Shown in pieces: positions 23,110 to 40,371 of a stretch of DNA of 51,347 bases. The position numbers and the translations under genes were made by a program. A model generated the notes under the pieces. It was given only the letters and a program-made list of their open reading frames with translations. It had not been told where the DNA came from and did not search any database. Within the stretch, counting starts at the first letter, position 1, and each line of letters starts with the position of its first letter. Origin of the DNA: Deltaproteobacteria bacterium. Its GTDB lineage: Bacteria > Desulfobacterota > Desulfomonilia > UBA1062. The stretch lies in NCBI GenBank assembly GCA_016929755.1, contig JAFGIF010000260.1, forward strand, positions 1-51,347. Reading direction: 5' to 3'.

Positions 23110-24888
23110 TTACTTTATCACCTTTATGCCGAGTTCTGCAAGTTGAGCATTGTCAAGTGCTGAAGGTGCATCGGTCATCGCGCACGCGGCTTTCTGGGTT
23201 TTCGGAAACGCTATAACATCCCGCAGAGACGATGCACCGGCGAGCAGCATGACCAATCTATCAAACCCGAAAGCGATGCCCCCATGAGGAGGGGCTCCAT
23301 ACTTAAGTGCATCCAGGAGGAAACCGAATTTTCTGCGGGCTTCCGTCTCCGTTAACCCAATCGTGCTAAAAACCTTGCGCTGAATATCCTGATTGTGAAT
23401 ACGTATACTTCCTCCACCAACCTCATTGCCGTTAATAACCATATCGTAGGCCTGCGCCCTTACCTTTTGGGGCGCAGATTCCAAAAGATTGATGTCTTCA
23501 GGTTTCGGGGCGGTAAACGGATGATGAACCGAGACCAGACGCTGCTCTTCCCGGCTCCATTCCAGCAGCGGAAAATCCGTCACCCACAAAGCACTGTAGA
23601 TGTCATCAGGGATCATATCGAAACGCATGGCAAGATGATGTCTCAAGGCTGCCAGGCTCGCATTGGCCACATCTTCCTGATCAGCTATAAACAGAACCAT
23701 ATCACCCACGCTTAATCCCAGCCTGGTATTAACTGCCTGGATCTGTTCTTCACTCATAAACTTGCTCAGGCTTGAGTTCCAGCTGTTTTCAGTCACCCTT
23801 GCCCACAAAACCCCTTTGGCTCCATAATCAGCTACAACCGAACCAAGCCCATCCAGCTCTTTTCTGCTCAGGCTCGCAGGAGCCTTGACCGGTATGGCCT
23901 TTACGACACCACCATCAGAGAAAACTGCCGAAAACACCTTGAAATCACTTCCGGCCACGATATCCGATACATCTTTGAGCAGCATCTCATAGCGAGTGTC
24001 AGGACGGTCGCACCCATAGTCAGCCATGGCCTGATTATAGCTCAGGCGTTCAAAGGGACGAGACATCTCAACCCCGATGGTCTCTTTGAATATTGTAGCG
24101 ATCAGTCCTTCGGTTATTTCCATTATATCAGCTTCTTGAACGAATGACATTTCGATGTCAATCTGAGTGAATTCAGGCTGGCGGTCGGCGCGCAAATCTT
24201 CATCACGAAAACACTTTACAATCTGGTAATAGCGGTCAAAGCCTGAAATCATGAGTAATTGTTTGAATAGTTGCGGGGATTGAGGCAGGGCGTAAAACTC
24301 ACCGGGAAACACCCTGCTGGGTACCAGATAATCTCTGGCGCCTTCCGGGGTGCTCTTGGTCAACACCGGTGTCTCTACTTCAATAAAGCCGTTGTCATCC
24401 ATATACCTGCGCGAGGCTGCAGCAGCCCTGTGCCTGAGCATAATATTTCTCTGCAGGCCCGGTCGTCTCAAGTCAAGGTAACGATATTTGAGTCTGAGGG
24501 CATCGCTCACTTCCACCCCGTCTTCCACCACAAACGGGGGGGTGTCAGACTCATTCAGGATGCTCACGCCATGCGCATGCAGCTCGACATCACCGGTTGG
24601 CATGCTTGGATTGCGCATTTCTTCGGGTCTCATGGCAAGTTCGCCCATAACGGCAATACAGTATTCGGGTTTCAATGTATGCGCTATTGCGTGTACCTCC
24701 GGATGTGCTTCAGGATTGAATACGACCTGGCAGATGCCGCTACGGTCACGCAGGTCTATAAAGATCAACCCTCCCAGGTCTCTTCTTCTTTGCACCCATC
24801 CCAGCATACTGACCTGTAAGCCTGCCTCATGCTTGCCGACTTCGCCACAGTAATGGGTCCTTGCAAAAACTGTTCGACCAGAATTCAC
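23110..24888 (-). CDS. aspS: Aspartate--tRNA ligase
   Basis: 592 aa with RTHYCGE, FIDLRDRSG, class-II motifs (FRDEDLRADRQPEFTQID, GGGSIRIH) and GIAFGFDRL. GTG start overlapping the hisS stop (GTGA). Confidence 0.95.
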   Translation of the reverse strand: MNSGRTVFARTHYCGEVGKHEAGLQVSMLGWVQRRRDLGGLIFIDLRDRSGICQVVFNPEAHPEVHAIAHTLKPEYCIAVMGELAMRPEEMRNPSMPTGDVELHAHGVSILNESDTPPFVVEDGVEVSDALRLKYRYLDLRRPGLQRNIMLRHRAAAASRRYMDDNGFIEVETPVLTKSTPEGARDYLVPSRVFPGEFYALPQSPQLFKQLLMISGFDRYYQIVKCFRDEDLRADRQPEFTQIDIEMSFVQEADIMEITEGLIATIFKETIGVEMSRPFERLSYNQAMADYGCDRPDTRYEMLLKDVSDIVAGSDFKVFSAVFSDGGVVKAIPVKAPASLSRKELDGLGSVVADYGAKGVLWARVTENSWNSSLSKFMSEEQIQAVNTRLGLSVGDMVLFIADQEDVANASLAALRHHLAMRFDMIPDDIYSALWVTDFPLLEWSREEQRLVSVHHPFTAPKPEDINLLESAPQKVRAQAYDMVINGNEVGGGSIRIHNQDIQRKVFSTIGLTETEARRKFGFLLDALKYGAPPHGGIAFGFDRLVMLLAGASSLRDVIAFPKTQKAACAMTDAPSALDNAQLAELGIKVIK

Positions 24889-26147
24889 GAATATCCTCCT
24901 TGTTCTTCGAGTAAGCTGTACACTTTTTTGGCGACTTCATTCCTGGGCGCCTGGGTCTGAAAAGATGTTCGTAAATCCTTGAGGGTGACAACGCCCCGGG
25001 CGAGCTCATCTTCTCCTATAATGGCACAGACCGGATATTCAGACCTGCCTGCTCTTTTCATTTGAGCTTTGAAGCTCTTCTCCAGAACAGCTTCTGCCCT
25101 GAGATTGGCCGAGCGTAAATCGGACAACAGCTTGAGTGCCTCATGTTGGAGGCGCTCATCTCCGTGTATGACAACATAACAACCCTTGACATCCTCTGTT
25201 CTATCCTCAAGCAGCATAATAATACGTTCGATACCAAAAGCAAACCCGATCCCGGGCACATCAGGGCCGCCCAGTGTACTGATCAGCCCATCGTACCTGC
25301 CCCCGCCGGCAATGGCATTTTGTGAACCCAATCCAGAGGCCGTGAGTTCAAAGGTCGTACGGGTATAGTAATCGAGTCCCCGTACCAGCCGGGCATTCTT
25401 GGTATACGGGACCTGTAGAGATTTAAGTCCTTCCAACACACAGTGGTAATGACCCCGGCAGTCATCACATAGAAAATCCTCTATCGAAGGGGCATCGGCT
25501 ACGACCTGTTGGCAGGTGTCGGTTTTGCAATCGAGCACCCTCAGCGGGTTAGTATGCATCCTGCGTGAACAGTCTTCACATAAGACTGCCTGCTTATGCT
25601 CCAAAAAGGATTGGAGCTGCTGCATGAACACTTTTCTGCATGAAGCGCACCCTAAAGAGTTTATTTCCAGGCTCACATTGTTTAAGTCCAGCGCAGTTGC
25701 CAGTTCATAGGCCATGGCCAATGTTTCGGCATCACAGTACGGACCCTCCTCACCGAGGCGTTCAACGTTTATCTGGTGAAACTGGCGATATCTGCCCTTT
25801 TGCGGTCTCTCATAACGAAACATGGGCCCGATACTGTAGAGTTTCTGAATCGGGTCCTTGCCGAGCAAGCCATGCTCAATGACCGCCCTGAGTACCGAGG
25901 CTGTCGCCTCGGGTCTGAGGGTAATCGAGGCACCAGACTTGTCGCTGAAGGTATACATTTGTTTTTCCACAACATCGGTATCCTCACCAATACCACGCAG
26001 AAAAAGCTCGGTTCGCTCTAAAATCGGGGAGCGCAACTCGGCAAAGCCGTACAGATCGAAAATTCTTCGCGTTGTATCTTCAACGAAGTGCCATTTCCCT
26101 ATCTCTTCCGGGAGAATATCATTCATACCTCGGATTGCTTTCATCAA
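24885..26147 (-). CDS. hisS: Histidine--tRNA ligase
   Basis: AIRGMNDILP, LRPEATASV, FRYERPQKGRYRQFHQ and GGGRYDGL, the classical HisRS motifs. Confidence 0.95.
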   Translation of the reverse strand: MMKAIRGMNDILPEEIGKWHFVEDTTRRIFDLYGFAELRSPILERTELFLRGIGEDTDVVEKQMYTFSDKSGASITLRPEATASVLRAVIEHGLLGKDPIQKLYSIGPMFRYERPQKGRYRQFHQINVERLGEEGPYCDAETLAMAYELATALDLNNVSLEINSLGCASCRKVFMQQLQSFLEHKQAVLCEDCSRRMHTNPLRVLDCKTDTCQQVVADAPSIEDFLCDDCRGHYHCVLEGLKSLQVPYTKNARLVRGLDYYTRTTFELTASGLGSQNAIAGGGRYDGLISTLGGPDVPGIGFAFGIERIIMLLEDRTEDVKGCYVVIHGDERLQHEALKLLSDLRSANLRAEAVLEKSFKAQMKRAGRSEYPVCAIIGEDELARGVVTLKDLRTSFQTQAPRNEVAKKVYSLLEEQGGYS

Positions 26148-26202: not shown

Positions 26203-27081
26203 TCAAAGCCCCCTGGCCCATTCAGGGCGGAGCAAGCCTGATTTTTTATCGCCTAAGGCCATGTCGATCAGCTTTAGAATCTTTTGTTTGTCCTGTGGAA
26301 AATCTCCATGTATCGGGAGATAATTGGATGCGTGCTCTGTGCCGAAATGAGTGCCTTTGAGTTCCAGATCTTCCACAAACCACCTCAACTCCTGAAGGCT
26401 CTGGCGTTTGTCGAGCAACTTGAATCCATCTCCCATGATCTTGGTTTCATACACCTCGCTGAAGTGTCCCAGCATGAGGGTCAAGCAGGAAAGGAAGGAG
26501 GGATTGATCGCATTGACCACCTTGGCCGAATCCTTGGCATGTACAAAACTCCCATCCACGCCGCCCAGCCCGAGCAAAATAATCGTTGAAAGCCTCAATC
26601 CCGCATCCAGGGCCTTGCGGCCGGCCTCGATAATTTCGGCACTGCCGGCCCCCTTGCAGATCCTCTTGAGTAGATCATCATTGCCGGTTTCAATACCCAG
26701 ATAGAGCATGTCCAGTTTTCTCTTCCTGAGTGCCTTAAGGTTACTGATGGTCTTATCCTTGAAATTTGTCGGCCCGGCATAAATACCAACTCGTTCCAGT
26801 GAGCGGAATTTTTCATTAAGCAGTTCAAGTATCCTGATCAAAAATGGGGTTTCAACACCGAGCGCATCACCATCGGCCAGAAAAATCCTCCTGGTATCCG
26901 GTTGCAACCATGCCATTTCCAGCACATCTTTCTCTATCTCTTCCCATTTTCGGACCTGGTAGCGCTTGCTTTTATACATGCCGCAAAAAAGACACCTGTT
27001 CCACGAACAACCGAGCGTAATCTGAAATATCAGGGAATTTGCTTCGGATGGTGGCCTATACAAAGGCATATCGTACTGCAT
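26203..27081 (-). CDS. Radical SAM protein with CX4CX2C cluster motif (paralogue A)
   Basis: RPPSEANSLIFQITLGCSWNRCLFCGMY: C25, four residues, C30, two residues, C33 (nt 26983-27009). Also GIETGND and LLGLGG. Clear paralogue of 29412-30314. Confidence 0.8.
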   Translation of the reverse strand: MQYDMPLYRPPSEANSLIFQITLGCSWNRCLFCGMYKSKRYQVRKWEEIEKDVLEMAWLQPDTRRIFLADGDALGVETPFLIRILELLNEKFRSLERVGIYAGPTNFKDKTISNLKALRKRKLDMLYLGIETGNDDLLKRICKGAGSAEIIEAGRKALDAGLRLSTIILLGLGGVDGSFVHAKDSAKVVNAINPSFLSCLTLMLGHFSEVYETKIMGDGFKLLDKRQSLQELRWFVEDLELKGTHFGTEHASNYLPIHGDFPQDKQKILKLIDMALGDKKSGLLRPEWARGL

Positions 27082-27090
27082 ATGATCCTC

Positions 27091-28737
27091 CTACTTGATG
27101 CCGGATAATGATTCGGCAATGTTGTATGCGTGGTCACCAATTTTCTCAAAACTGGTGAGTATGTCCACATAAATCAGGCCTGCATCAGCACTGCAAACAG
27201 AATCTTTGAGCCGGTCCATATGGTTGATCCGCATCTCGCGGCGCATCGTATTCAGGCGGTTCTCATAGCGCCTTACCTGTTCGATCAGATCAGATGGTGT
27301 ATCTTTTATTGCCTGAATAATAATCTTCAGATACTCAAGTGTGTGGTGAAAAATTTCATTCAGCTCTTTTTTACCGGCATCGGAAAATATCAGGCTATAC
27401 TCATTTCTGCGCTTACATAATTTTGCAAGACTCTCACAATGATCTCCGATCCTCTCGAGATTGCTCACCATATACAGCATGGAAAAAATTTCTTTTGATT
27501 GACTCTCTGTTACCGACTGGCGGGAGAGTTCGGTAAGGTAGGTATTTATCTCTTTCTGGAGGTCGTCAACGAGTGACTCCATCTCCTCGACCCGTTTTAA
27601 CACCTTATCGGTATTAACATTATCGATGATTGGGTTTTCAACAACGGCCAGCATATTGAAAACCTCATTGCCCATATAATCAATCTCCTGCTTGGCCTCA
27701 TCGAGCGCCACGGGAACTGTCTCAAATATGCTCGGATCCAAAGACTCCAGTCTGAATGTTCGCGGCCGTACCTCTCCGGGGACGATCAATGCAGAAATTT
27801 TGGCCAATATTCCCAGCATCGGCAGAAACACCAGACAGTTCGCCACATTAAATATTGTATGGAAATTAGCAATATGTCTGGCTATATAGGGCAGATTTCC
27901 GTTGAGCGCCAAATCAGGTTGCCCAGGGGTTACAAAATCAACAAACTCCACAAACAATGGGAAAATCAATAGAATGATACCGACCCCGATTACGTTGAAC
28001 ATCAAGTGGGATATGGCAACCCTTTTGGCCGATACATTGGTTCCTATGGAAGCAAGCTGGGCGGTGATAGTGGTGCCTATATTGTCACCCAAAACCAAAG
28101 CGGCTGCACCGTAAAAATCCACAACCCCGCTTGAAGCCAGAGCAATTACCAATCCTATCGTTGCCGAAGAGCTTTGAAAAAGCATGGTAATGATTGTTCC
28201 TACAACGACTCCAAGGATTGGGGTCGTTGAAAAATAAATAAAGAGATCGCTGATCCAGGGGGCGGAGCGCAAAGGAGTCATTGCATCTTTCATCACAAAC
28301 AGGCCAAAAAAGATCAGACCGAATCCCATTATGAACTCTCCTGAAAACTTCGTTCTTTCCTTTCGTCCCAGGAGTTTCATGAACATCCCGATGCCGATTG
28401 TGGGCAAGGCGATATCAGTCAGATTAAAGGCTATAATCTGCGCCGTGACAGTTGTACCGATATTGGAGCCGATTACAACACCGATTGCCTGTCGTAGCGT
28501 CATAAGCCCTGCGTTGACGAGGCCGACGGTCATGACTGTTGTAGCGCTTGAACTCTGGATGACGGAGGTTATAGCTGTCCCGGCGATCACTGCGACCACA
28601 CGGTTTGTGGTAAGACGCTCCAGAATATGCCGCATTTTGGGTCCGGCAAGCTTCTGCAGACCATCAGACATGATATGCATACCAAAGAGAAAAAGCCCCA
28701 GACCTCCGAGTGTTGTGAGCAAAATATTAGTTATCAA
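27091..28737 (-). CDS. Na/Pi cotransporter family protein with C-terminal PhoU-like repeats
   Basis: 548 aa. The N-terminal two-thirds is polytopic with duplicated QSSSATT / QSSSATIG motifs of the Na/Pi-cotransporter II-related family. The C-terminus has two PhoU-like helical repeats (ERIGDHCE and EKIGDHAYNI). Confidence 0.9.
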   Translation of the reverse strand: MITNILLTTLGGLGLFLFGMHIMSDGLQKLAGPKMRHILERLTTNRVVAVIAGTAITSVIQSSSATTVMTVGLVNAGLMTLRQAIGVVIGSNIGTTVTAQIIAFNLTDIALPTIGIGMFMKLLGRKERTKFSGEFIMGFGLIFFGLFVMKDAMTPLRSAPWISDLFIYFSTTPILGVVVGTIITMLFQSSSATIGLVIALASSGVVDFYGAAALVLGDNIGTTITAQLASIGTNVSAKRVAISHLMFNVIGVGIILLIFPLFVEFVDFVTPGQPDLALNGNLPYIARHIANFHTIFNVANCLVFLPMLGILAKISALIVPGEVRPRTFRLESLDPSIFETVPVALDEAKQEIDYMGNEVFNMLAVVENPIIDNVNTDKVLKRVEEMESLVDDLQKEINTYLTELSRQSVTESQSKEIFSMLYMVSNLERIGDHCESLAKLCKRRNEYSLIFSDAGKKELNEIFHHTLEYLKIIIQAIKDTPSDLIEQVRRYENRLNTMRREMRINHMDRLKDSVCSADAGLIYVDILTSFEKIGDHAYNIAESLSGIK

Positions 28738-28822
28738 GGATGCCCCCGCAAATAATAAGTCCAGTGCTGTAAAACCACATTACCAAAAATATTTCAACCT
28801 TTAACAAAACGTTCCGTCTCTA

Positions 28823-29212
28823 TCATAAAGGCTTATACGGCTTGATATCCAGAATTGGCGTTTCGTCCACCAGATCGACATTATCCACGTAAATAAGCTG
28901 CCGTTCGACTTTGAGCAATTTGAGCACCGACATGCCGATCGGATTTGGACGCATGGGAGAACACAGGCTGAAAACCCCTTTCATTTCGCCATGGGCCATA
29001 CGCTTTTGCACCAGAGAATAGCGTTCGGAGAGATGAAAATGAAACAGGACCACAATGTGCTCAAGTTCTTCAAGCCCAAGGAGCCCCTGGGTATAGGGCT
29101 CATAGATTTCGATAGTGCCCTTGATCTTCGATATGGAATAAAACTTTGGCGCTGAAGCCGCATCCTTTAGTTCACAGTGCATGATCCCGATCGGCTTATA
29201 GGATATTTTCAT
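28823..29212 (-). CDS. TsaA/TrmO-family (UPF0066) domain protein, short form
   Basis: I chose the ATG at 29212 (MKISYKPIGIMHC) with GGAAGGAGA upstream. RPNPIGMSVLKLLKVE ... DLVDETPILDIKPY are typical of the TsaA fold. At 130 aa it lacks the C-terminal domain of E. coli TrmO. Confidence 0.8.
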   Translation of the reverse strand: MKISYKPIGIMHCELKDAASAPKFYSISKIKGTIEIYEPYTQGLLGLEELEHIVVLFHFHLSERYSLVQKRMAHGEMKGVFSLCSPMRPNPIGMSVLKLLKVERQLIYVDNVDLVDETPILDIKPYKPL

Positions 29213-29385
29213 CGTTTCTCCTTCCAGCACCACCCCGGGCTTCATTACCTGCAAACCCCTGTCTTTTCAATACTATCACCGATACAAAGCAGGTCTTTAA
29301 GCTCCAATTATCATATCTGTTCCAATCTACCAAGGAACAAGTTAGCAACGCATGCATGTAATGGTCGGGAAATCAGTGGATCTGC

Positions 29386-29416
29386 TTGACCCAAGTCTTT
29401 AAAAGACCTATATGAT
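29386..29416 (+). promoter_or_regulatory. Candidate promoter with embedded palindrome upstream of radical SAM paralogue B
   Basis: TTGACC (29386-29391). Possible -10 TATATG (29409-29414, 17-nt spacer) or TATGAT (29411-29416, 19-nt spacer). The spacer contains the 13-bp palindrome GTCTTTAAAAGAC (29395-29407). There is no SD before either ATG (29412 or 29421). Confidence 0.3.
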
Positions 29417-30314
29417 TTCTATGCATGTCCCCGAACAACTGGTTATTCGCCCTCCCAGCGAAGCTGCAAGTCTGCTGATTAGAACCGTGCGCGGCTGTAA
29501 CTGGAACCGCTGCCTCTTCTGCGGCATTTACGATCTCTACGGTGTCCCTTATTCTCAGAGAACACCGAAGGAAGTGAAAAATGATATTGATGCCTTTGAG
29601 GCACACTATGGTGACCACTTTGAAACCGCTTTTCTGGGGGATGCCAATCCTATGGATCTGCCCACGGAATTCCTGGTCGATATTTTAACTCACCTGCGCG
29701 TAAAATTTCCGTCTTTGCAGCGGGTTACCGTCTATGGCAGGGCTTCCAGCATATGGAAAAAATCACTCGATGAACTCACCCGAATCCGTAATGCCGGCCT
29801 GGATCGGGTGCATACAGGTATGGAAAGCGGTTCAAACCGGGTTTTAGCTTTCCATAAAAAAGGCTCCAACCAAAAGCAGTTGATAGAGGCGGGACAAAAG
29901 GCACGGGATGCCGGTCTGGAGTTAAGCTACTACTTCCTGCTCGGCCTGGGCGGAAAAACCATGTGGCAGGATCATGTAATCGATTCAGCTAAAGTGATCA
30001 ACCTCGCACGCCCGCATTTCGTCAGGGTCAGACGCTTGTGGATTCATCCAATGTCAAGGCTGATGCAAAAGGTTGACTCCGGGGAGTTTGTTCCTCAGGA
30101 GCCTGAAGGAACCGTGATCGAATTGAAAGATCTGGTCGAAAATCTGGATGCCCCGGGAACCACTTTCGCCTGCGATCACGCCAATAACTATATCCAGGTC
30201 TTCGGCAGACTCAATGATGATAAAAAACATATGCTATCAATAATAAACAACTTCCTGGCCTTGCCACCTGAGAAGCGCACTGCTCACTATAATTCCATTC
30301 CTTCGGTAATCTGA
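29412..30314 (+). CDS. Radical SAM protein with CX4CX2C cluster motif (paralogue B)
   Basis: RPPSEAASLLIRTVRGCNWNRCLFCGIY: C29, four residues, C34, two residues, C37 (nt 29496-29522). Also GMESGSN and LLGLGG. The start may be 29421. Confidence 0.8.
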   Translation: MISMHVPEQLVIRPPSEAASLLIRTVRGCNWNRCLFCGIYDLYGVPYSQRTPKEVKNDIDAFEAHYGDHFETAFLGDANPMDLPTEFLVDILTHLRVKFPSLQRVTVYGRASSIWKKSLDELTRIRNAGLDRVHTGMESGSNRVLAFHKKGSNQKQLIEAGQKARDAGLELSYYFLLGLGGKTMWQDHVIDSAKVINLARPHFVRVRRLWIHPMSRLMQKVDSGEFVPQEPEGTVIELKDLVENLDAPGTTFACDHANNYIQVFGRLNDDKKHMLSIINNFLALPPEKRTAHYNSIPSVI

Positions 30315-30354: not shown

Positions 30355-31437
30355 CTAGGATGGAACCTGGGGCACGTACAGGGTATAAAAAAGGCGCAGA
30401 AAGGCTGAATCCGTCAGGCTTGCAATAAAATCCCGTACAATTTCGGAAGGAATATGATGCTCTTCGTATTCCGGGGTCATATGTACCAGAAATTGCGTGA
30501 ATATTGGAGAATTTTGATCATCTGATTCAATAGCATCCGCCAGGGACGCGAATATGAGCGCATACATGGCCTTGATCTTGTCCGATTCTTTTTTGACTTT
30601 TTCGTTCAGATAGATATTTTCGTAGTTAAAAGCCTTGAGCTCCGACAGGGCCTGAAATATCCGCTGCGAATACGAGATAGCGTCATGGCCCGAGTGTTGT
30701 ATCAGGTCCTCAACTAGGGTGTAAACGATCTTTCCGTTGGTATCACCCAAAATGTTTACAATTTTTTGGGGCAGATCGGCGCGGGAGATGATACCCAGGG
30801 CAATCGCATCCTCAATGTCCCGGCCCACATAACTGATCGTATCCACTACTCTGACAAGGCATCCTTCCATGGTAGCCGGGGCCGGACTCTGTCCTTGCCG
30901 GCAATGCTGAAGTTTCTCATCAAAATCATCAAACGCATGTATCAAGTCAGGGGCAATGGATTGTTCCGTCATCTCTCCGTTATGGCACAGAATTCCATCA
31001 AGCACCTCTAAAGTCAGGTTCAGCCCTTTGCCGTCCTTTTCTACAATTTCCAGGGCCTGAACAGCCTGGACATTATGCCTGAATAGCCCGATGTTTGTCT
31101 GCTGGCAGATTCCATCCAGGTAGATTTCTCCATCGTGGCCAAATGGAGGATGACCGATATCATGTCCTATGGCAATTGCCTCTATCAGATCATCATTCAA
31201 TCCGAGCTTGCGCCCGATGGTACGGGCAATACGGGAGAGCAGTTGAACATGAATGACACGGTGAGAAATGCCCTGATGTCCGATCAGGTAAAAAACCTGG
31301 GTCTTATCAATATAGGAGGTATATGCCCTGGAGTGCAGGATGCGGTCTACATCGATGGAAAAAGCGTCACGCATGTCCCACTTGCTGCGCTCTTCGGACT
31401 TTCTCCGTTTTGCTTTAGCTGGATCTGTCCATTTCAT
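30355..31437 (-). CDS. HD-domain dNTP triphosphohydrolase-like protein (dGTPase family)
   Basis: RDAFSIDVDRILHSRAYTSYIDKTQVF, HRVIHVQ and IGHDIGHPPFGHDGE, the HD/dGTPase-family motifs. 360 aa. Confidence 0.85.
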   Translation of the reverse strand: MKWTDPAKAKRRKSEERSKWDMRDAFSIDVDRILHSRAYTSYIDKTQVFYLIGHQGISHRVIHVQLLSRIARTIGRKLGLNDDLIEAIAIGHDIGHPPFGHDGEIYLDGICQQTNIGLFRHNVQAVQALEIVEKDGKGLNLTLEVLDGILCHNGEMTEQSIAPDLIHAFDDFDEKLQHCRQGQSPAPATMEGCLVRVVDTISYVGRDIEDAIALGIISRADLPQKIVNILGDTNGKIVYTLVEDLIQHSGHDAISYSQRIFQALSELKAFNYENIYLNEKVKKESDKIKAMYALIFASLADAIESDDQNSPIFTQFLVHMTPEYEEHHIPSEIVRDFIASLTDSAFLRLFYTLYVPQVPS

Positions 31438-31445
31438 GATTCATT

Positions 31446-33515
31446 TTAAGTAGACAGTGAAGAAAACCTCGCCATCCTTTCAAATAAGGAAACCAGCCGA
31501 TTCAAAAGTGCAATCCGGTTGTTTCTGGTGGAAATGTCGTCACTCATCACCAGAACCTTGTCGAAAAAGGTATCGATCGGCTCTTTCAGACCGACCAGCA
31601 GTTTCAGGGCAGCGATATAATCCCCCTTGCCGGCATACTCAATAAAAGGCTCTTCAACTTCTTTTAACTTAAAGAATAAATCTTTCTCGGGCTGCTCAAG
31701 GAAAAGATTTTCAGAAATTTCAGAGATTTCTTCGGTCTTTTTGAGTATATTTTCAACCCGTTTTGAAGCGGCACAGATTGTAGCCAGCCAGGGTTCATCT
31801 TTCAGCTGAAAAATCGCACGAGCCCGCATATATGTATCGAAGGGATCATCAAAATCTGTAAGGACTGCCTCGATCACATCCCCGGCAATACCCTCGCCGT
31901 GCAGAATTGAGACAAACCGGGAGGAAAAAAAGCTCAGCACATCCGATTTGATTTCACCCGCACTGCGATTGATCCTGCTTTTAAGTTGCGCTAGTGCCTG
32001 ATCTATAAGCCCGCTCAGCGATAGTTTATATTTCTTGCCGACTAAAAGCCGTTCGATGGCAATTGCCTGCCTGCGCAGGGCATAGGGATCTGACGTACCG
32101 CTCGGAATCATGCCGACCCCGAAACAGCCACAGATGGTATCAATTCTGTCGGCTATACCCACCAAGTCGCCGATAATGCCCGAGGGCAGATCATCTTCAG
32201 CCCAGGCCGGCAGATAGTGTTCATGAATCGCCAGGGCCACTTCAGGGTCAATGCCCTGCCGCAGCGCATACTCCCGTCCCATGATGCCTTGCAGTTCCGG
32301 CAACTCGTATACCATCAGAGAGTTCAGATCTCCCTTGCAGAGCTGAGAAGCGAGCTTAACCTTGTCGCGCTTATCCGGCGCGAACAGATCTGAAAGGTAG
32401 AGCGCATTTTGGGTAAAGCGTTCGACCTTCTCATAGGATGTTCCCAGATCCTTATGGAAAATTACATCCTTCAGACTCAGGGCGTAATCTTTAAGGGGCA
32501 CTTTGAAATCTTCCTGGAAGAAATACGAGGCATCTTCCAGGCGTGCCTTGAGCACCCGCTCGTTGCCGATACGCACAACAGCGGAATCCTTGGGTATGAT
32601 ATTGCTTACCGCAATGAAATACGGCTGCAATGTGCCCTTTTCATCTTTGCTGTACAGCGGGAAAAATCGCTGGTGGTGTTTCATGACCGTCACCAGGACC
32701 TCTGTAGGCAGATCGAGGAAGTGTTCGTCGAAAGACCCTACAATCGGATAGGGATATTCCAGCAGGTTTACAACCTCATCCAGCAGGTCTTTATCAAGAA
32801 TCCGGGCCTGGAGTTCATCAGCCTTAGCGTTGATATCACTCCATATCAGCTCTTTTCTTTTATCAATATCGGGAATCACATGGTTTGCTTCAAGGAGAGT
32901 TTCGTACATGCCGGGAGAAGATACTTCGATTGTGCCTGCGGACATAAAACGGTTGCCACGGGTAGTATTGCCGGAAGTAATATTTCCGAATTTGACTGGT
33001 ACTATCTCATCCTCAAAAAGAGCCAGAATCCAATGTACGGGCCTGGCAAATCTCACGCCCGGATTCGACCAGCGCATGGTCTTGGGAAACGGGATGTCCC
33101 GGATCGTCTCTTCCATGATTTCGGGCAAAACATCTATGGTGAGCCTGCCGGGAATATTAACCTCAACACACAGGTATTCGCCTTTGGGGGTTTCCTTGGT
33201 GCTGATATCATCCATATCGACCCCGGACGAACGTGCAAACCCAAGAGCTGCCTTGGTAGGCTTCCCGTCTTCATCATAGGAGATTTTTCTGGGCGGACCC
33301 ATCCGTGTTTCAACTCTGTCGGCCAGCTTGGAGGGGAGGCCTTTGACAATCAGGGCCAGCCTGCGGGGCGTGCCGTACAATGCAGGAGTATCGTACTCAA
33401 TCCCAATCTGGGAAAAACGCTCGGTAACTCTTGCGCGTATAAATTCAAGCGCAGGGACAATGAAGCTTGATGGTATTTCCTCGGTGCCTATCTCAAGGAG
33501 TAACGATTTTTTCAT
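31446..33515 (-). CDS. glyS: Glycine--tRNA ligase beta subunit
   Basis: I chose the ATG at 33515 ([15 protein letters not shown]), which forms an ATGA overlap with the glyQ stop. The 52-codon extension in the ORF track lies inside glyQ. Confidence 0.95.
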
Positions 33516-34375
33516 GGCTGCCCCTCGTCCTGCCGGGGTTCGTCTTTGAGATACAGGGCTGCTGCCGCCTTGGCCATTTCCCTGACCCGGCCCACATAGG
33601 CTGTTCTCTCGGTTGTACTGATGGCATTTCTCGCATCCAGCAAGTTGAACAGGTGCGAACATTTCAAACACATGTCATATACCGGCAGACACAGGCCTGC
33701 ATCAGCCAGTCTCCTGGCTTCATCCTCGTAGAGCCTGAACAGATCAAGCAGGGTCGGGACATCAGCCTGCTCAAAGTTGTACTTCGACCACTGAACCTCG
33801 CCGGCATGGTGCACATCGCCGTAAGTGATATCGTCCTTCCAGCGGATATCATATACCGAGTCAACCCCCTGCAGAAACATTACTATACGTTCGAGACCAT
33901 AGGTGATCTCGGTACAGACCGGGTCCAGATCAAAACCGCCGACCTGCTGGAAATAGGTGAACTGGGTGATTTCCATACCGTCCAGCCACACCTCCCAGCC
34001 GAGCCCCCAGGCCCCGACAGTGGGGGATTCCCAATCATCCTCGACAAAGCGGATATCATGTTCAAGAGGATCGATGCCCAGGGTTTTCAGGCTTTCGAGG
34101 TACACTTCCTGCACATCGATCGGGGACGGCTTGAGAATCACCTGGAACTGGTAATAGTGCTGAAGCCGGTTCGGGTTCTCACCGTAGCGACCGTCCGTAG
34201 GTCTCCTGGATGGTTCCACATAGGCTACTTTCCAGGACTTTGGCCCGAGACAGCGCAGAAACGTGGCCGGGTTGAAAGTGCCGGCGCCGACTTCCAAATC
34301 ATAGGGCTGGGCGATCAGACACCCATACCCGGACCAAAAAGCCTGTAATGTCATGATTACTTCCTGAAAATCCAT
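33512..34375 (-). CDS. glyQ: Glycine--tRNA ligase alpha subunit
   Basis: 287 aa with [50 protein letters not shown] and [11 protein letters not shown], all highly conserved in GlyQ. Confidence 0.95.
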
Positions 34376-38049: not shown

Positions 38050-40371
38050 ATGAGTATTGAGAAACAGCTGCATACCATTACCAGGCCGACACGTTATCTC
38101 GGCAGTGAAATCAACCAGATTGTAAAACCCGCAGAAGAAGTAAGGGTTCGCATTGCCCTGGCTTTTCCGGATGTCTATGAAATCGGGATGTCGCATGCCG
38201 GTATAAAGATCCTCTATCAAATCCTGAATGCCATGCCCGGAGTCTGGGCTCAAAGAGTTTTTGCCCCCTGGCACGACATGGCCGCGGCCCTTAAAGAAAC
38301 GGACACTCCCCTGTTTAGCCTTGAAGAACAGCGACCTCTGCGCCAATTTGATATTCTCGGATTCTCCCTGCTCTATGAACTCTCTTACAGCACCGTAATC
38401 AGAATGCTCAAGCTGGGGCGCATTCCCACCTATGCCGCACAACGAACCAAGGATGACCCCATTGTAATAGCAGGCGGCACCTCCACAGCCAATCCCACCC
38501 CGTACCAGGACTTCTTCGACCTTGTGGCCATAGGTGACGGGGAACAGATCGTTGAGGAAATTGCCCGCATCTGCCTCCAAACCGGGGAGCGTACAGAACG
38601 AATCCTTGCCATCGCCGACCTCTCCGGCATATACCGACCCGGCACCAAAAAAACACCAAGGAGAAGCATCCTGCCTGACCTGGATTCGTACCCGTTTCCA
38701 AACCATCCGGTGCTGCCCAACACATCCATCGTGCATGACCGGCTGGGAGTTGAAGTGGCTCGCGGATGTACCCGGGGTTGCAGGTTCTGCCAGGCCGGTA
38801 TGATTTACCGGCCGTATCGGGAGCGTTCGCTTTCATCGGTAATGAACACTTTCGATAGGGGTCTCAAGGCAACCGGATACGACGAAATCTCCATGCTGGC
38901 GCTGTCCGTGACCGATTTAAGCTATCTGGATTCAATCATGACCTCTCTGTATTGTCCATCCAGAGAGATTTCTGTAGGGATTCCCTCCATGCGGGTCGAA
39001 GGCCTGCCCAAAAGCGTGACGGATCTGCTTTCGTCGGTCAAAAAACCGGGATTCACGCTGGCACCGGAAGCAGCCAGTGAAAAACTCAGAACCATCATCA
39101 ACAAGGGCAATACCGAAGATGATCTGTTTCGAACCGTGCGGTGCAGCCGTGAGTTCGGGTGGAAGTCATTAAAACTCTACTTCATGATCGGTTTACCCGG
39201 CGAGACCGAAGCGGACCGCGTTGCCATCTGTGATTTGTCAAAAAGAATCGCCAGAGAATTCAAAGGCAGGATCACGGTGAGCATATCGGCCTTTATTCCA
39301 AAACCGTTCACGCCCTTCCAGTGGGAATCACAGATATCGCCGGAGAGGCACCAGGTGTGGCTGGATTTTTTCCATCAAAATATTCGCGATCGCCGCATTT
39401 CACTCAAATGGCAGGATCCCCCGTTGACGTTTCTCGAGGGGGTCTTTTCACGTGGTGATTCCAGGCTTGCCAAGGTGATCGTTGAGGCGGAAGAAAATGG
39501 AGCCTATCTGGATGGCTGGGTTGATACGTTCAACTTCAAGGCCTGGCAGGATGCATTTAAAAACAACGGCATAGACCCGAACGAATATCTCGCAGAGAGA
39601 GATCCGCAGCAAAACCTGCCCTGGGAATTTATCGACATGCGCATCAAAAAAGACTTTCTGCTGAAAGAACGCTCTCTGGCCTATGAAATCAGCCCGACTC
39701 CCGACTGCAGGGAAGGCCTCTGCAGCGACTGCGGCACATGTGAGAGCGAGATAGACAATATTGTCAGGAAAAAGGTCAAGCCAATACAGATATTCAAAAA
39801 ACCCGTGACATCACAGAATATACCCTATGTAATCGGGCTTACAAAACATGACGTTCTGAAATTCACAGCCCCCAGTGACTGGGTGGAGATGATCAAGCGC
39901 ACTATCCGCAGAGCACAGCTCCCCGCAGTCTATTCCCGGGGCTACAGCCCCGGCATGAAGCTCAGCCTGATTCCGCCCACATCCTTTGGTATCGAATCTT
40001 CCAGCGAATATTTCCAGTTCGAACTCAGGCAAGAAATCGAACCGGACCTCATTATCTCACGGCTTGGGAAGCATTTGCCCAAGGGCGCCGCAATCTTCGA
40101 GTGCTTCAAAGGGAAGTTGCCAAAGGTCGAAGCGTACATATACAGGCTCAAAAAACCACTCCATCTCACTCTAAAAGTTGATTCCTGTATTGAAAAAGGA
40201 TCTTCGCTGTTAAAGGTTCATGATTACCTTACACAACCCGACGAAAAAACACTCGAAATTCGGTTTATTGAGGGCAGAACACTCTCCCCGATGATGATAG
40301 CCCAATCGTTTGCCAAAGAGCCGCTAATTCCGCAAGATATTACTAAGATCAAGACGATCTTTTGTGAGTGA
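38050..40371 (+). CDS. Radical SAM protein of the TIGR03960 type fused to a DUF2344 (TIGR03936-type) domain
   Basis: The N-terminus ITRPTRYLGSEINQ ... ALAFPDVYEIGMSHAGIKILY and CX3CX2C in ARGCTRGCRFCQAG match my recollection of TIGR03960. The C-terminal ~200 aa (IRRAQLPAVYSRGYSPGMKLSLIPPTSFGIESSSEYFQFEL) resembles DUF2344. The ATG directly abuts the stop of the MBL gene. Confidence 0.8.
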   Translation: MSIEKQLHTITRPTRYLGSEINQIVKPAEEVRVRIALAFPDVYEIGMSHAGIKILYQILNAMPGVWAQRVFAPWHDMAAALKETDTPLFSLEEQRPLRQFDILGFSLLYELSYSTVIRMLKLGRIPTYAAQRTKDDPIVIAGGTSTANPTPYQDFFDLVAIGDGEQIVEEIARICLQTGERTERILAIADLSGIYRPGTKKTPRRSILPDLDSYPFPNHPVLPNTSIVHDRLGVEVARGCTRGCRFCQAGMIYRPYRERSLSSVMNTFDRGLKATGYDEISMLALSVTDLSYLDSIMTSLYCPSREISVGIPSMRVEGLPKSVTDLLSSVKKPGFTLAPEAASEKLRTIINKGNTEDDLFRTVRCSREFGWKSLKLYFMIGLPGETEADRVAICDLSKRIAREFKGRITVSISAFIPKPFTPFQWESQISPERHQVWLDFFHQNIRDRRISLKWQDPPLTFLEGVFSRGDSRLAKVIVEAEENGAYLDGWVDTFNFKAWQDAFKNNGIDPNEYLAERDPQQNLPWEFIDMRIKKDFLLKERSLAYEISPTPDCREGLCSDCGTCESEIDNIVRKKVKPIQIFKKPVTSQNIPYVIGLTKHDVLKFTAPSDWVEMIKRTIRRAQLPAVYSRGYSPGMKLSLIPPTSFGIESSSEYFQFELRQEIEPDLIISRLGKHLPKGAAIFECFKGKLPKVEAYIYRLKKPLHLTLKVDSCIEKGSSLLKVHDYLTQPDEKTLEIRFIEGRTLSPMMIAQSFAKEPLIPQDITKIKTIFCE

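What the first reader, a model, noticed from the sequence alone, without database searches (positions are those of the whole stretch)
26203..30314. Pair of paralogous radical SAM proteins with non-canonical CX4CX2C motif bracketing a Na/Pi-PhoU transporter and a TsaA-domain protein
Seen: the 292-aa (26203-27081, minus) and 300-aa (29412-30314, plus) proteins share RPPSEA-SL, GC-WNRCLFCG-Y, IEAG-KA-DAGL, LLGLGG and DSAKV. In both, the first two cluster cysteines are separated by four residues (CSWNRCLFC and CNWNRCLFC), not the canonical three. Between them lie a 548-aa Na/Pi cotransporter with PhoU repeats and a 130-aa TsaA/TrmO-fold protein, another SAM-utilising fold. Paralogue A sits in the run trmO-like, Na/Pi, radical SAM, hisS, aspS, with gaps of 85 nt (trmO-like to Na/Pi), 9 nt and 55 nt before hisS and aspS overlap by 4 nt. 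Established: deviant spacings are rare and family-specific, for example ThiC CX2CX4C and HmdB CX5CX2C. I recall CX4CX2C for archaeal Elp3, which should be verified. Inference: this may be an uncharacterised radical SAM family present as a duplicated pair, possibly linked to phosphate or organophosphorus handling or to tRNA modification.
Basis: partly seen in the sequence, partly recalled or inferred. Interest (0 to 1): 0.65.

Follow-up and report, generated by a model that had tools for sequence, protein, structure and literature searches.

The report
Two uncharacterised radical SAM paralogues
The two genes are real, anciently diverged members of a very large, widespread radical SAM enzyme family of unknown function, but their unusual cysteine spacing is already known elsewhere and their link to the phosphate transporter is local gene order, not a shared pathway.

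Summary
A (26203-27081, minus, 292 aa) and B (29412-30314, plus, 300 aa) are 37% identical (E 4e-55). Both carry CX4CX2C (CSWNRCLFC and CNWNRCLFC) and RPPSE.

They belong to one large family: 1038 clusters at 50% identity with E<=1e-30, in many bacterial and archaeal phyla. The spacing is kept in 147 of the best 150 representatives. No curated model or source name goes beyond "radical SAM protein". The nearest relatives are remote: MgmA, archaeal Elp3, OxsB and HemN.

CX4CX2C is already documented for archaeal Elp3, OxsB and GenD1/GenK, so it is not new in itself. A and B fall in the two deepest branches of the family. They are an ancient split, not a recent duplication.

The block B / TrmO_N - [Na/Pi-PhoU] - A - hisS - aspS recurs only in one Desulfomonilia/Syntrophia-like clade. 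The transporter is an optional insert. None of the 77 other loci examined has any of these neighbours.

The phosphate link is not supported. A role in tRNA modification remains a weak, untested lead. The substrate is unknown. Interest is modest.

The parts
26203..27081 (-). Paralogue A, 292 aa. It belongs to the main ('A-type') subfamily of the family, with the C-terminus ...LRPEWARGL.
   Evidence: ORF. PF04055 at 73 bits. No NCBIfam model above its cutoff. More than 7000 homologues. AlphaFold2 model with pLDDT 92.4 and pTM 0.90.
26983..27009 (-). CX4CX2C cluster motif of A (C25, C30, C33), the predicted [4Fe-4S] ligands.
   Evidence: Translation. These three Cys are invariant in a 98-sequence family alignment.
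27043..27057 (-). RPPSE motif of A (R9-E13), an N-terminal family signature just before the first strand.
   Evidence: Translation. P10 is invariant and R9, P11 and E13 are nearly invariant in the 98-sequence alignment. The motif is present in 113 of 150 representatives.
29412..30314 (+). Paralogue B, 300 aa (297 aa if it starts at the second ATG, as in most orthologues). It belongs to a smaller, deeply diverged subfamily with the C-terminus ...HYNSIPSVI.
   Evidence: ORF. PF04055 at 64.6 bits. 866 homologues. It sits in the opposite half of the family tree from A.
29496..29522 (+). CX4CX2C cluster motif of B (C29, C34, C37).
   Evidence: Translation.
28823..29254 (-). Stand-alone TrmO_N/TsaA-domain protein, 129 aa from the likely ATG at 29212. 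It lacks the C-terminal domain of full-length TrmO. It is transcribed divergently from B and lies upstream of A.
   Evidence: PF01980 and TIGR00104 above their cutoffs. Shine-Dalgarno sequence. It is present upstream of A in 11 of 13 loci of the close clade.
27091..28737 (-). Na/Pi cotransporter II-related protein fused to PhoU domains. It is an optional insert between TrmO_N and A.
   Evidence: PF02690, PF01895 and TIGR00704. It is present in 7 of 13 clade loci. It is absent in L008, L011, L012, L013, L093 and L094, where TrmO_N directly precedes A.
23110..26147 (-). hisS (24885-26147) and aspS (23110-24888), immediately downstream of A on the same strand. This is the most stable neighbour relation within the clade.
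   Evidence: ORFs. hisS is downstream of A in 12 of 13 clade loci. A and hisS share one base in L094.
30355..31437 (-). dGTP triphosphohydrolase-like HD protein, convergent with B. It is a neighbour only, not part of the feature.
   Evidence: PF01966 and PF13286. It is found near the pair only in the closest relatives, L006 and L090.

Best explanation
**What they are.** A and B are two anciently diverged members of a single, very large family of stand-alone radical SAM enzymes whose function has not been characterised.

**Shared architecture.**
- Members are typically about 290 aa.
- They have a Radical_SAM core, with a weak Radical_SAM_C-like tail in some members.
- They have no cobalamin-binding domain and no conserved extra cysteines for an auxiliary cluster.

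**Core mechanism.** The mechanism is inferred from the superfamily. The ligand residues are shown by conservation.
- The three cysteines of GCxxNxCxFC (C25, C30, C33 in A; C29, C34, C37 in B) hold a [4Fe-4S] cluster.
- That cluster binds SAM and reductively cleaves it to a 5'-deoxyadenosyl radical.
- The radical abstracts a hydrogen atom from a still unknown substrate.
- The four-residue first spacer is a fixed trait of the family. It is a known tolerated variant of the cluster loop, as in archaeal Elp3 and OxsB.

**Limits on the chemistry.** Without B12 or a second cluster, the reaction is limited to hydrogen-abstraction-initiated chemistry, or to a two-SAM reaction.

**Genomic arrangement.** The block B <-> TrmO_N - [Na/Pi-PhoU] - A - hisS - aspS - LysM - icd is lineage-specific synteny of housekeeping genes in a Desulfomonilia/Syntrophia-like clade. 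The phosphate transporter is an optional insert, not a partner.

**Best guess at the substrate (about 0.3).** I favour a component of the translation apparatus, most plausibly tRNA. Three observations point that way:
- A is apparently co-transcribed with hisS-aspS.
- A follows a TrmO_N gene.
- The nearest characterised relatives with the same core (Elp3, MiaB/MtaB) act on tRNA.

The confidence of 0.72 refers to the classification and the synteny conclusion, not to the substrate.
For: **Family size and spread**
- 1038 clusters at 50% identity with E<=1e-30, and 4044 with E<=1e-10.
- Genome loci come from Thermodesulfobacteriota, Archaeoglobi, Thermoplasmatota, Bacteroidales, Planctomycetota and Gammaproteobacteria.
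- Further protein hits are named for Clostridia (Caloranaerobacter, Lutispora, Clostridium) and Methanomassiliicoccales.
- Further hits lie in records of cultured Sulfuricurvum, Fusobacterium, Vibrio and Ilyobacter.

**Motif conservation**
- CX4CX2C is present in 147 of 150 representatives.
- C25, C30 and C33 are invariant.

**No curated identity**
- Only PF04055 passes its cutoff.
- Every NCBIfam hit is far below its cutoff.
- Source names are generic only.

**Remote relatives**
- By profile: MgmA 3.6e-12, archaeal Elp3 4e-12, OxsB 7e-11, HemN 1e-6.
- PF16199 Radical_SAM_C matches weakly in 16 of 98 members.

**Structure**
- A confident AlphaFold2 model (pLDDT 92.4) matches only generic radical SAM barrels.
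- TM-scores do not exceed 0.62. The best matches are MgmA, AprD4 and MiaB.

**Ancient split**
- In a neighbour-joining tree A falls among 60 leaves and B among 43, in the two halves of the tree.
- A is 40-50% identical to A-type proteins of other phyla, but only 37% identical to B.

**Synteny limited to one clade**
- TrmO_N is upstream of A in 11 of 13 loci, Na/Pi-PhoU is present in 7 of 13, hisS is downstream in 12 of 13, and B is divergent in 5 of 13.
- None of these neighbours occurs in the 77 other loci.
- Of seven B orthologues looked up, four lie away from A. Three are in unrelated contexts and one is about 22 kb from A on the same contig.
- The other three lie next to TrmO_N and A.
Against: - No biochemical or genetic datum bears on the substrate.
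- The tRNA idea rests on synteny in a single clade and on similarity of the shared radical SAM core.
- The proteins have a near-neutral pI: median 6.9 for A orthologues, 6.6 for B orthologues and 7.1 for the family. No recognisable RNA-binding domain was found.
- In other phyla the gene stands alone in unrelated contexts.
- In Pseudomonas and related Gammaproteobacteria it sits next to a DUF1285 gene. In Pseudomonas it also follows a TetR regulator and lies near ETF and FabV genes. That hints at lipid metabolism rather than tRNA.
- I could not query RadicalSAM.org or InterPro. A recent characterisation outside the searchable literature cannot be excluded.
Confidence: 0.72

Rival explanations
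1. The two radical SAM proteins, the Na/Pi-PhoU transporter and the TsaA-domain protein form one functional module for phosphate or organophosphorus handling.
For: The four genes are contiguous in the window. They are also contiguous in L002, L005, L006, L007, L090 and L091. B's best sub-threshold NCBIfam hit is the PhpK P-methyltransferase family, at 44.9 bits.
Against: The PhpK hit is far below its cutoff of 600 bits. It covers only the common radical SAM core, and the cobalamin domain that such methylases need is absent. Na/Pi-PhoU is missing between TrmO_N and A in L008, L011, L012, L013, L093 and L094. It is missing from all 77 loci outside the clade. No phosphonate-pathway genes are nearby; the surrounding genes are for arginine biosynthesis, icd, aminoacyl-tRNA synthetases, recO and mgtE.
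Confidence: 0.04
2. A and B work together, either as a heteromer or as consecutive steps on one substrate. The TrmO_N-domain protein would be a third, SAM-binding partner.
For: B, TrmO_N and A are adjacent or nearly so in at least 10 loci of the clade: the window, L002, L005, L006, L007, L012, L090, L091, L093 and L094.
Against: Loci in other phyla show a single family member within 10 kb, so the A-type protein does not need an adjacent B. B orthologues lie away from A in four of seven look-ups. B is transcribed divergently from the TrmO_N-A-hisS run rather than with it. Whole-genome co-occurrence of A and B could not be tested.
Confidence: 0.15
3. The family acts on a small molecule, lipid or cofactor rather than on RNA. 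It would be an anaerobe-enriched metabolic or repair enzyme. Its neighbours in the window would be uninformative.
For: Most taxa recovered are anaerobic groups: Clostridia, Bacteroidales, sulfate reducers, Archaeoglobi and Methanomassiliicoccales. There are several paralogous subfamilies, including a form of about 380 aa. The pI is near neutral. In Pseudomonas the gene follows a TetR regulator and lies next to ETF-QO, EtfAB and FabV-type genes. From my own knowledge of PAO1 gene order I take that regulator to be PvrA (PA2957), the fatty-acid-utilisation regulator described in PMC7293031. Structural neighbours include small-molecule enzymes: PylB, AprD4, HydE and HydG.
Against: No metabolic neighbour is conserved across phyla. 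The Pseudomonas context is again synteny in a single lineage. The closest sequence relatives act on macromolecules: Elp3 on tRNA and MgmA on protein.
Confidence: 0.3

Closest known systems
Archaeal Elp3, radical SAM domain (Methanocaldococcus infernus, PDB 6IAD/6IAZ/6IA8; NCBIfam TIGR01211)
   Same: It has the same CX4CX2C spacing (KCPHGKCIFC). It also has similar GxESG and LxGLPG-type core motifs and a Radical_SAM_C-like segment. The family profile matches it at E 4e-12 over about 120 residues.
   Different: Elp3 carries a C-terminal GNAT acetyltransferase domain and is about 480-550 aa; A and B have no such domain. TIGR01211 scores 20 bits against a cutoff of 350 for B and does not hit A. 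The N-terminal RPPSE motif and the C-terminal HASNY motif are specific to this family.
Cobalamin-dependent (class B) radical SAM enzymes: MgmA (PDB 9CCB), OxsB (5UL2), GenD1/GenK, PhpK, HpnJ
   Same: They are the best profile and structural matches to the radical SAM core: MgmA at E 3.6e-12 and TM 0.62, OxsB at 7e-11. OxsB and GenD1/GenK also have CX4CX2C.
   Different: All of them have an N-terminal cobalamin-binding domain of 150-300 residues. A and B begin only about 20 residues before the cysteine motif, so they cannot bind B12 in that way. MgmA has the canonical CX3CX2C. All the NCBIfam equivalog scores are far below their cutoffs.
MnmL/YtqA/YhcC (TIGR01212) and RaSEA (TIGR01210), the stand-alone tRNA-modifying radical SAM enzymes of about 300 aa
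   Same: They are similar in size and single-domain layout. MnmL/YhcC belongs to the same ELP3/YhcC subgroup. Its family was one of only three contexts in which a search for PF16199 turned up a paper. Both give weak sub-threshold hits.
   Different: Scores are 15-26 bits against cutoffs of 180-212. The RadicalSAM.org paper lists CX11CX2C and CX7CX2C motifs for the megaclusters assigned to the ELP3/YhcC subgroup, not CX4CX2C.
HemN/HemW coproporphyrinogen-oxidase-like radical SAM proteins (PDB 1OLT)
   Same: The family profile matches HemN at E 1e-6 over the whole core, residues 27-239.
   Different: There is no HemN_C domain. The cysteine spacing differs. HemW scores 17-19 bits against a cutoff of 205.

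Membership tests
Radical SAM superfamily | Match to PF04055 above the gathering threshold | tested here: met
   A scores 73.4 bits and B 64.6 bits, against a cutoff of 29.5. All 98 diverse family members match.
Radical SAM superfamily | Three-cysteine motif near the N-terminus that ligates the SAM-binding [4Fe-4S] cluster (canonical form CX3CX2C) | tested here: met
   It is present as the CX4CX2C variant. The three Cys are invariant. The variant is documented as functional in Elp3 and OxsB. Cluster binding itself was not tested.
Radical SAM superfamily | Partial or full (beta/alpha) barrel fold | tested here: met
   The AlphaFold2 model has pLDDT 92.4 with alternating strands and helices. Foldseek gives probability 1.00 to many radical SAM structures.
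Elp3 (TIGR01211) | Radical SAM domain fused to a C-terminal GNAT/KAT acetyl-CoA domain, and a model score above the cutoff | tested here: not met
   No GNAT domain was found in Pfam. B scores 20 bits against a cutoff of 350, and A gives no hit.
Class B cobalamin-dependent radical SAM enzymes | N-terminal cobalamin-binding (Rossmann-like) domain | tested here: not met
   Only 24-28 residues precede the first cysteine. There is no B12-binding Pfam hit. HpnJ, PhpK and MgmA-type models score 20-45 bits against cutoffs of 360-600.
MnmL/YhcC (TIGR01212) and RaSEA (TIGR01210) | Equivalog model score above the cutoff | tested here: not met
   Scores are 15.5-16.1 bits against 180 for TIGR01212, and 20-26.3 bits against 212 for TIGR01210.
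Methylthiotransferases, SPASM/twitch enzymes and lipoyl/biotin synthase-like enzymes (radical SAM with an auxiliary cluster) | Additional conserved cysteines for a second Fe-S cluster | tested here: not met
   In the 98-sequence alignment only C25, C30 and C33 are invariant or nearly invariant cysteines.
TrmO/TsaA (for the 129-143 aa neighbour) | TrmO_N beta-barrel domain, with TIGR00104 above its cutoff | tested here: met
   PF01980 at 110 bits, and TIGR00104 at 118.6 bits against a cutoff of 93.25. No Pfam domain other than TrmO_N was found. The protein is only 129-143 aa, so the C-terminal domain that I recall in full-length TrmO is absent. Whether it methylates t6A is not testable here.
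Na/Pi cotransporter II-related protein with PhoU (for the 548 aa neighbour) | Two Na_Pi_cotrans repeats plus PhoU domains, with TIGR00704 above its cutoff | tested here: met
   PF02690 at 230.7 bits in 2 stretches, PF01895 at 81.5 bits in 2 stretches, and TIGR00704 at 267.7 bits against a cutoff of 210.1.
Known anti-phage defence systems (PADLOC) | Match to any PADLOC model | tested here: not met
   A, B, the Sulfuricurvum plasmid homologue and the Pseudomonas homologue give no PADLOC hits.

The most novel reading that the evidence does not exclude
The GCxxNxCxFC/RPPSE family would be a new class of housekeeping radical SAM enzyme that installs a not-yet-assigned modification on tRNA or another part of the translation apparatus. 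It is widespread in anaerobic bacteria and archaea and is also present in Pseudomonas. The A and B subfamilies would have different targets or steps. In the Desulfomonilia-like clade a stand-alone TrmO_N protein would act as a partner.
Probability: 0.2. Interest if true: 0.6.

Novelty: new member of a known kind. Interest (0 to 1): 0.3.

Why it matters
If its function were found, a family with more than a thousand clusters at 50% identity would gain an annotation. That family spans gut Bacteroidales and Clostridia, sulfate reducers, archaea and Pseudomonas. The result might also account for an orphan modification or metabolic step.

As it stands, the finding is one more well-defined piece of radical SAM "dark matter". 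The cysteine spacing and the fold are ordinary for the Elp3/class-B branch of the superfamily. The suggestive gene neighbourhood does not hold outside one clade.

The useful outcomes here are three:
- a clean definition of the family: GCxxNxCxFC, RPPSE, HAxNY, about 290 aa, no B12 domain and no auxiliary cluster;
- the recognition of two deep subfamilies;
- the identification of genetically tractable hosts, such as Pseudomonas aeruginosa, for a knockout test.

Tried and rejected
- **Curated family assignment.** Pfam, NCBIfam and PADLOC scans of A and B gave only PF04055. All equivalog hits were far below their cutoffs and there was no defence model.
- **Solved homologues.** Single-sequence and profile searches of PDB sequences, and a Foldseek search with a confident model, found only remote radical SAM cores.
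- **Names from sources.** Three homologue searches and one cluster look-up returned only "radical SAM protein", COG1032/YgiQ, or spurious "Elp3/HAT" or "MiaB family" labels.
- **Conserved neighbours.**
  - I clustered the ORFs of 80 genome loci. A first count under-called TrmO_N and hisS, because longer antisense ORFs displaced them.
  - A tblastn recount corrected this. Outside one clade there are no shared neighbours.
  - Bacteroidales, Archaeoglobi and Gammaproteobacteria each have their own local synteny.
- **Metagenome scan for B.** It returned a single, near-identical locus, L090. It should have been run with an alignment rather than one sequence.
- **RNA elements.** There were no Rfam hits and no tRNA genes in the window. 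Promoter and terminator scans were uninformative.
- **Extra domains.** The longer family members were scanned for fused domains that might hint at function. None was found beyond weak Radical_SAM_C matches.
- **Phage origin.** A hit in the record "Pseudomonas phage Y13" (UNVERIFIED) turned out to sit among ordinary Pseudomonas chromosomal genes: PilZ, TatD, TetR, ETF-QO, EtfA and FabV. It was rejected as evidence for a phage-borne gene.
- **Literature.** Searches for the motif, PF16199, 9CCB, PA2956 and PA2957 found no characterisation of this family.
- **RadicalSAM.org.** Whether the family equals Megacluster-4-11, the CX4CX2C group named in PMC9477430, could not be determined.

Full report
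**1. The observation**

Both ORFs are present as described: A at 26203-27081 (minus, 292 aa) and B at 29412-30314 (plus, 300 aa). Translating the motif coordinates gives CSWNRCLFC for A and CNWNRCLFC for B, so both are CX4CX2C.

Between them lie two genes:
- a Na/Pi cotransporter fused to PhoU domains (TIGR00704 at 267.7 bits, cutoff 210);
- a stand-alone TrmO_N/TsaA-domain protein (TIGR00104 at 118.6 bits, cutoff 93).

The TrmO_N gene most likely starts at the ATG at 29212, which has GGAG 5 nt upstream. That gives 129 aa. The intergenic distances of 85, 9 and 55 nt, and the 4-nt hisS/aspS overlap, follow.

**2. What the proteins are**

Only the general Radical_SAM model PF04055 passes its threshold. 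Every NCBIfam hit is far below its cutoff. These hits include HpnJ, PhpK, MgmA-type, RaSEA, Elp3, HemW and MnmL.

The family is nevertheless large.
- A profile built from A and B orthologues finds 1038 representative clusters (50% identity) at E<=1e-30 and 4044 at E<=1e-10.
- Genome loci come from several phyla:
  - Thermodesulfobacteriota;
  - Archaeoglobi;
  - Thermoplasmatota;
  - Bacteroidales;
  - Planctomycetota;
  - SAR324;
  - Ignavibacteria;
  - Gammaproteobacteria, including Shewanella chilikensis.
- A profile search also recovers named members from Clostridia (Caloranaerobacter, Lutispora, Clostridium) and from Methanomassiliicoccales.
- Records of cultured Sulfuricurvum, Fusobacterium, Vibrio, Ilyobacter and Acetoanaerobium carry it too.
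- So does a Pseudomonas chromosome fragment deposited as "phage Y13".
- Names given by sources are never more specific than "radical SAM protein" or a COG label.

**3. The motif**

Among the 150 best representatives, 147 have CX4CX2C. Two of the other three are truncated, and one has an additional cysteine inside the same motif. RP[PA]SE is present in 113.

In a 98-sequence alignment with mean column identity of 32%:
- the invariant positions are P10, C25, C30, C33, G133, P194 and E231;
- the nearly invariant positions include R9, P11, E13, G24, N28, Y36, F67, Y101, G129, E131, K143, G171, G174, H181, H250 and N253.

The family signature is therefore RPPSE ... GCxxNxCxFC ... GxExG ... LGLGG ... 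HAxNY. No further conserved cysteine exists, so an auxiliary cluster is unlikely.

The spacing itself is not new. The literature records it for:
- archaeal Elp3 (PMC2996862; also seen directly);
- OxsB (PMC9204698; seen);
- GenD1/GenK (PMC4340712);
- a RadicalSAM.org megacluster (PMC9477430).

**4. Relatives and structure**

The family profile reaches four solved proteins:
- MgmA (9CCB) at 3.6e-12. This entry was identified as the MCR glutamine methylase through PMC11796369 and the Foldseek description.
- Archaeal Elp3 at 4e-12.
- OxsB at 7e-11.
- HemN at 1e-6.

Sixteen of 98 members weakly match PF16199 Radical_SAM_C. The family therefore sits in the Elp3 / class B / HemN / MiaB region of the superfamily.

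An AlphaFold2 model of A is confident (pLDDT 92.4, pTM 0.90). It matches only generic radical SAM barrels, with TM-scores no higher than 0.62; the best are MgmA, AprD4 and MiaB.

Only about 24 residues precede the first cysteine, so there is no room for a cobalamin domain. The proteins are not members of Elp3, class B, MnmL, RaSEA or HemN (see the membership table).

**5. The paralogy**

A is 40-50% identical to A-type proteins of other phyla but only 37% identical to B. In a neighbour-joining tree of 103 sequences, A falls in a group of 60 leaves and B in the other 43. B's half also contains a subfamily of about 380 aa that has an insertion after the cysteine motif. The two genes therefore represent the deepest split in the family, not a recent duplication. 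The A-type proteins share the C-terminus ...RPxWxRGL, while the B-type proteins end ...HYxSxPSVI.

**6. The neighbourhood**

I clustered the ORFs of 80 genome loci. I then recounted with tblastn, because antisense ORFs had masked short genes.

In the 13 informative loci whose A protein is at least 66% identical to the window's (labelled Desulfomonilia, Syntrophaceae or "Deltaproteobacteria"):
- TrmO_N lies upstream of A in 11;
- Na/Pi-PhoU is inserted between them in 7;
- hisS follows A in 12;
- B is divergent upstream in 5.

Seven look-ups of B orthologues gave a mixed result.
- Three lie next to TrmO_N and A.
- Three are in unrelated contexts.
- One is about 22 kb from A on the same contig.

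In L094, A and hisS share one base, which suggests co-transcription.

None of these neighbours occurs in the 77 other loci. Other lineages show their own local orders:
- a PflX-like radical SAM gene and a glycyl-radical enzyme in Bacteroidales;
- DUF1285 in Pseudomonas, Motiliproteus and Oleiphilaceae;
- a 3'-5' exonuclease on a Sulfuricurvum plasmid;
- isolated genes in Clostridia and Methanomassiliicoccales.

The rest of the window is ordinary chromosome: argB/D/G/H-type genes, icd, a LysM protein, glyQS, recO and mgtE.

**7. Interpretation**

*Shown.* There are two real paralogues. The family is very large, and CX4CX2C is fixed within it. There is no B12 domain and no auxiliary-cluster cysteines. 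The split between A and B is ancient. The synteny is limited to one clade, and the phosphate transporter is an optional insert within it.

*Inferred from the superfamily.* The three cysteines bind a [4Fe-4S] cluster. That cluster cleaves SAM to a 5'-deoxyadenosyl radical, which abstracts hydrogen from the substrate.

*Guessed.* The substrate is unknown.
- I favour a component of the translation apparatus, probably tRNA, at about 0.3. The reasons are the A-hisS-aspS run, the TrmO_N gene, and the Elp3 and MiaB relatives.
- Against this stand the neutral pI, the lack of an RNA-binding domain, and the absence of cross-phylum linkage.
- A small-molecule or lipid role is about equally likely.
- The phosphate or organophosphorus module is essentially excluded.

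**8. Verdict**

However, the two features that made the finding look special do not hold up. The "deviant" motif is already known in related enzymes. The bracketing of a transporter is local gene order. This is a well-defined member pair of the known radical SAM kind with unknown substrate. Interest is 0.3.

Noticed in passing
window 38050-40371 (+): A third, unrelated radical SAM gene of 773 aa, with Radical_SAM_N2, Radical_SAM and DUF2344 domains.
   Followed up: no
P0253, P0272, P0275, P0288 and about 30 other representatives: A subfamily of about 380 aa within the same family. The profile matches these proteins in two stretches, which implies an insertion of about 40 residues after the cysteine-motif region. 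They sit on B's side of the tree and one cluster includes a Desulfomonile sequence. No extra Pfam domain was found.
   Followed up: partly
L096 4006-4881 (record OQ572414.1, 'UNVERIFIED: Pseudomonas phage Y13'): A full-length A-type family member, 37% identical to A. It lies among ordinary Pseudomonas chromosomal genes: PilZ, TatD, a TetR regulator, DUF4823, DUF1285, ETF-QO, EtfA and FabV. The record looks like bacterial chromosome rather than phage. From memory of PAO1 gene order, the TetR gene would be pvrA (PA2957, PMC7293031) and the radical SAM gene PA2956. This assignment is unverified.
   Followed up: partly
L070 10001-11457; L074 3222-5171; L096 4006-6140: In three gammaproteobacterial lineages (Motiliproteus, Oleiphilaceae, Pseudomonas) the family member is followed by a DUF1285 gene. 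This is the only neighbour relation seen that is shared by more than one gammaproteobacterial lineage.
   Followed up: partly
L095 6472-7876 (Sulfuricurvum kujiense plasmid pSULKU02): A plasmid-borne family member, 40% identical to A, starts two bases after a DEDDh-type 3'-5' exonuclease gene. A second, partial copy lies on plasmid NC_014754.
   Followed up: partly
L030, L037, L043, L045, L050, L052, L057 (Bacteroidales loci): In five to six Bacteroidales loci the family member follows a PflX-like radical SAM gene. It also lies near a glycyl-radical enzyme and its activase.
   Followed up: no
window 31446-33671 (-) and 33512-34375 (-): The glyS-like ORF read from its first GTG overlaps the upstream glyQ-like ORF by 160 nt. 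The true glyS start is probably further downstream.
   Followed up: no
window 30355-31437 (-): The dGTPase-like HD protein convergent with B matches the PADLOC dGTPase model at 165.9 bits. It scores below every NCBIfam equivalog cutoff. It recurs only in the closest relatives, L006 and L090.
   Followed up: no
MT835575.1 296-1108 ('Bacteriophage sp.', human faecal sample): Another family member, 36% identical to A, lies at the very end of a 30-kb unannotated viral-labelled contig. It is not established whether the contig is truly phage.
   Followed up: no
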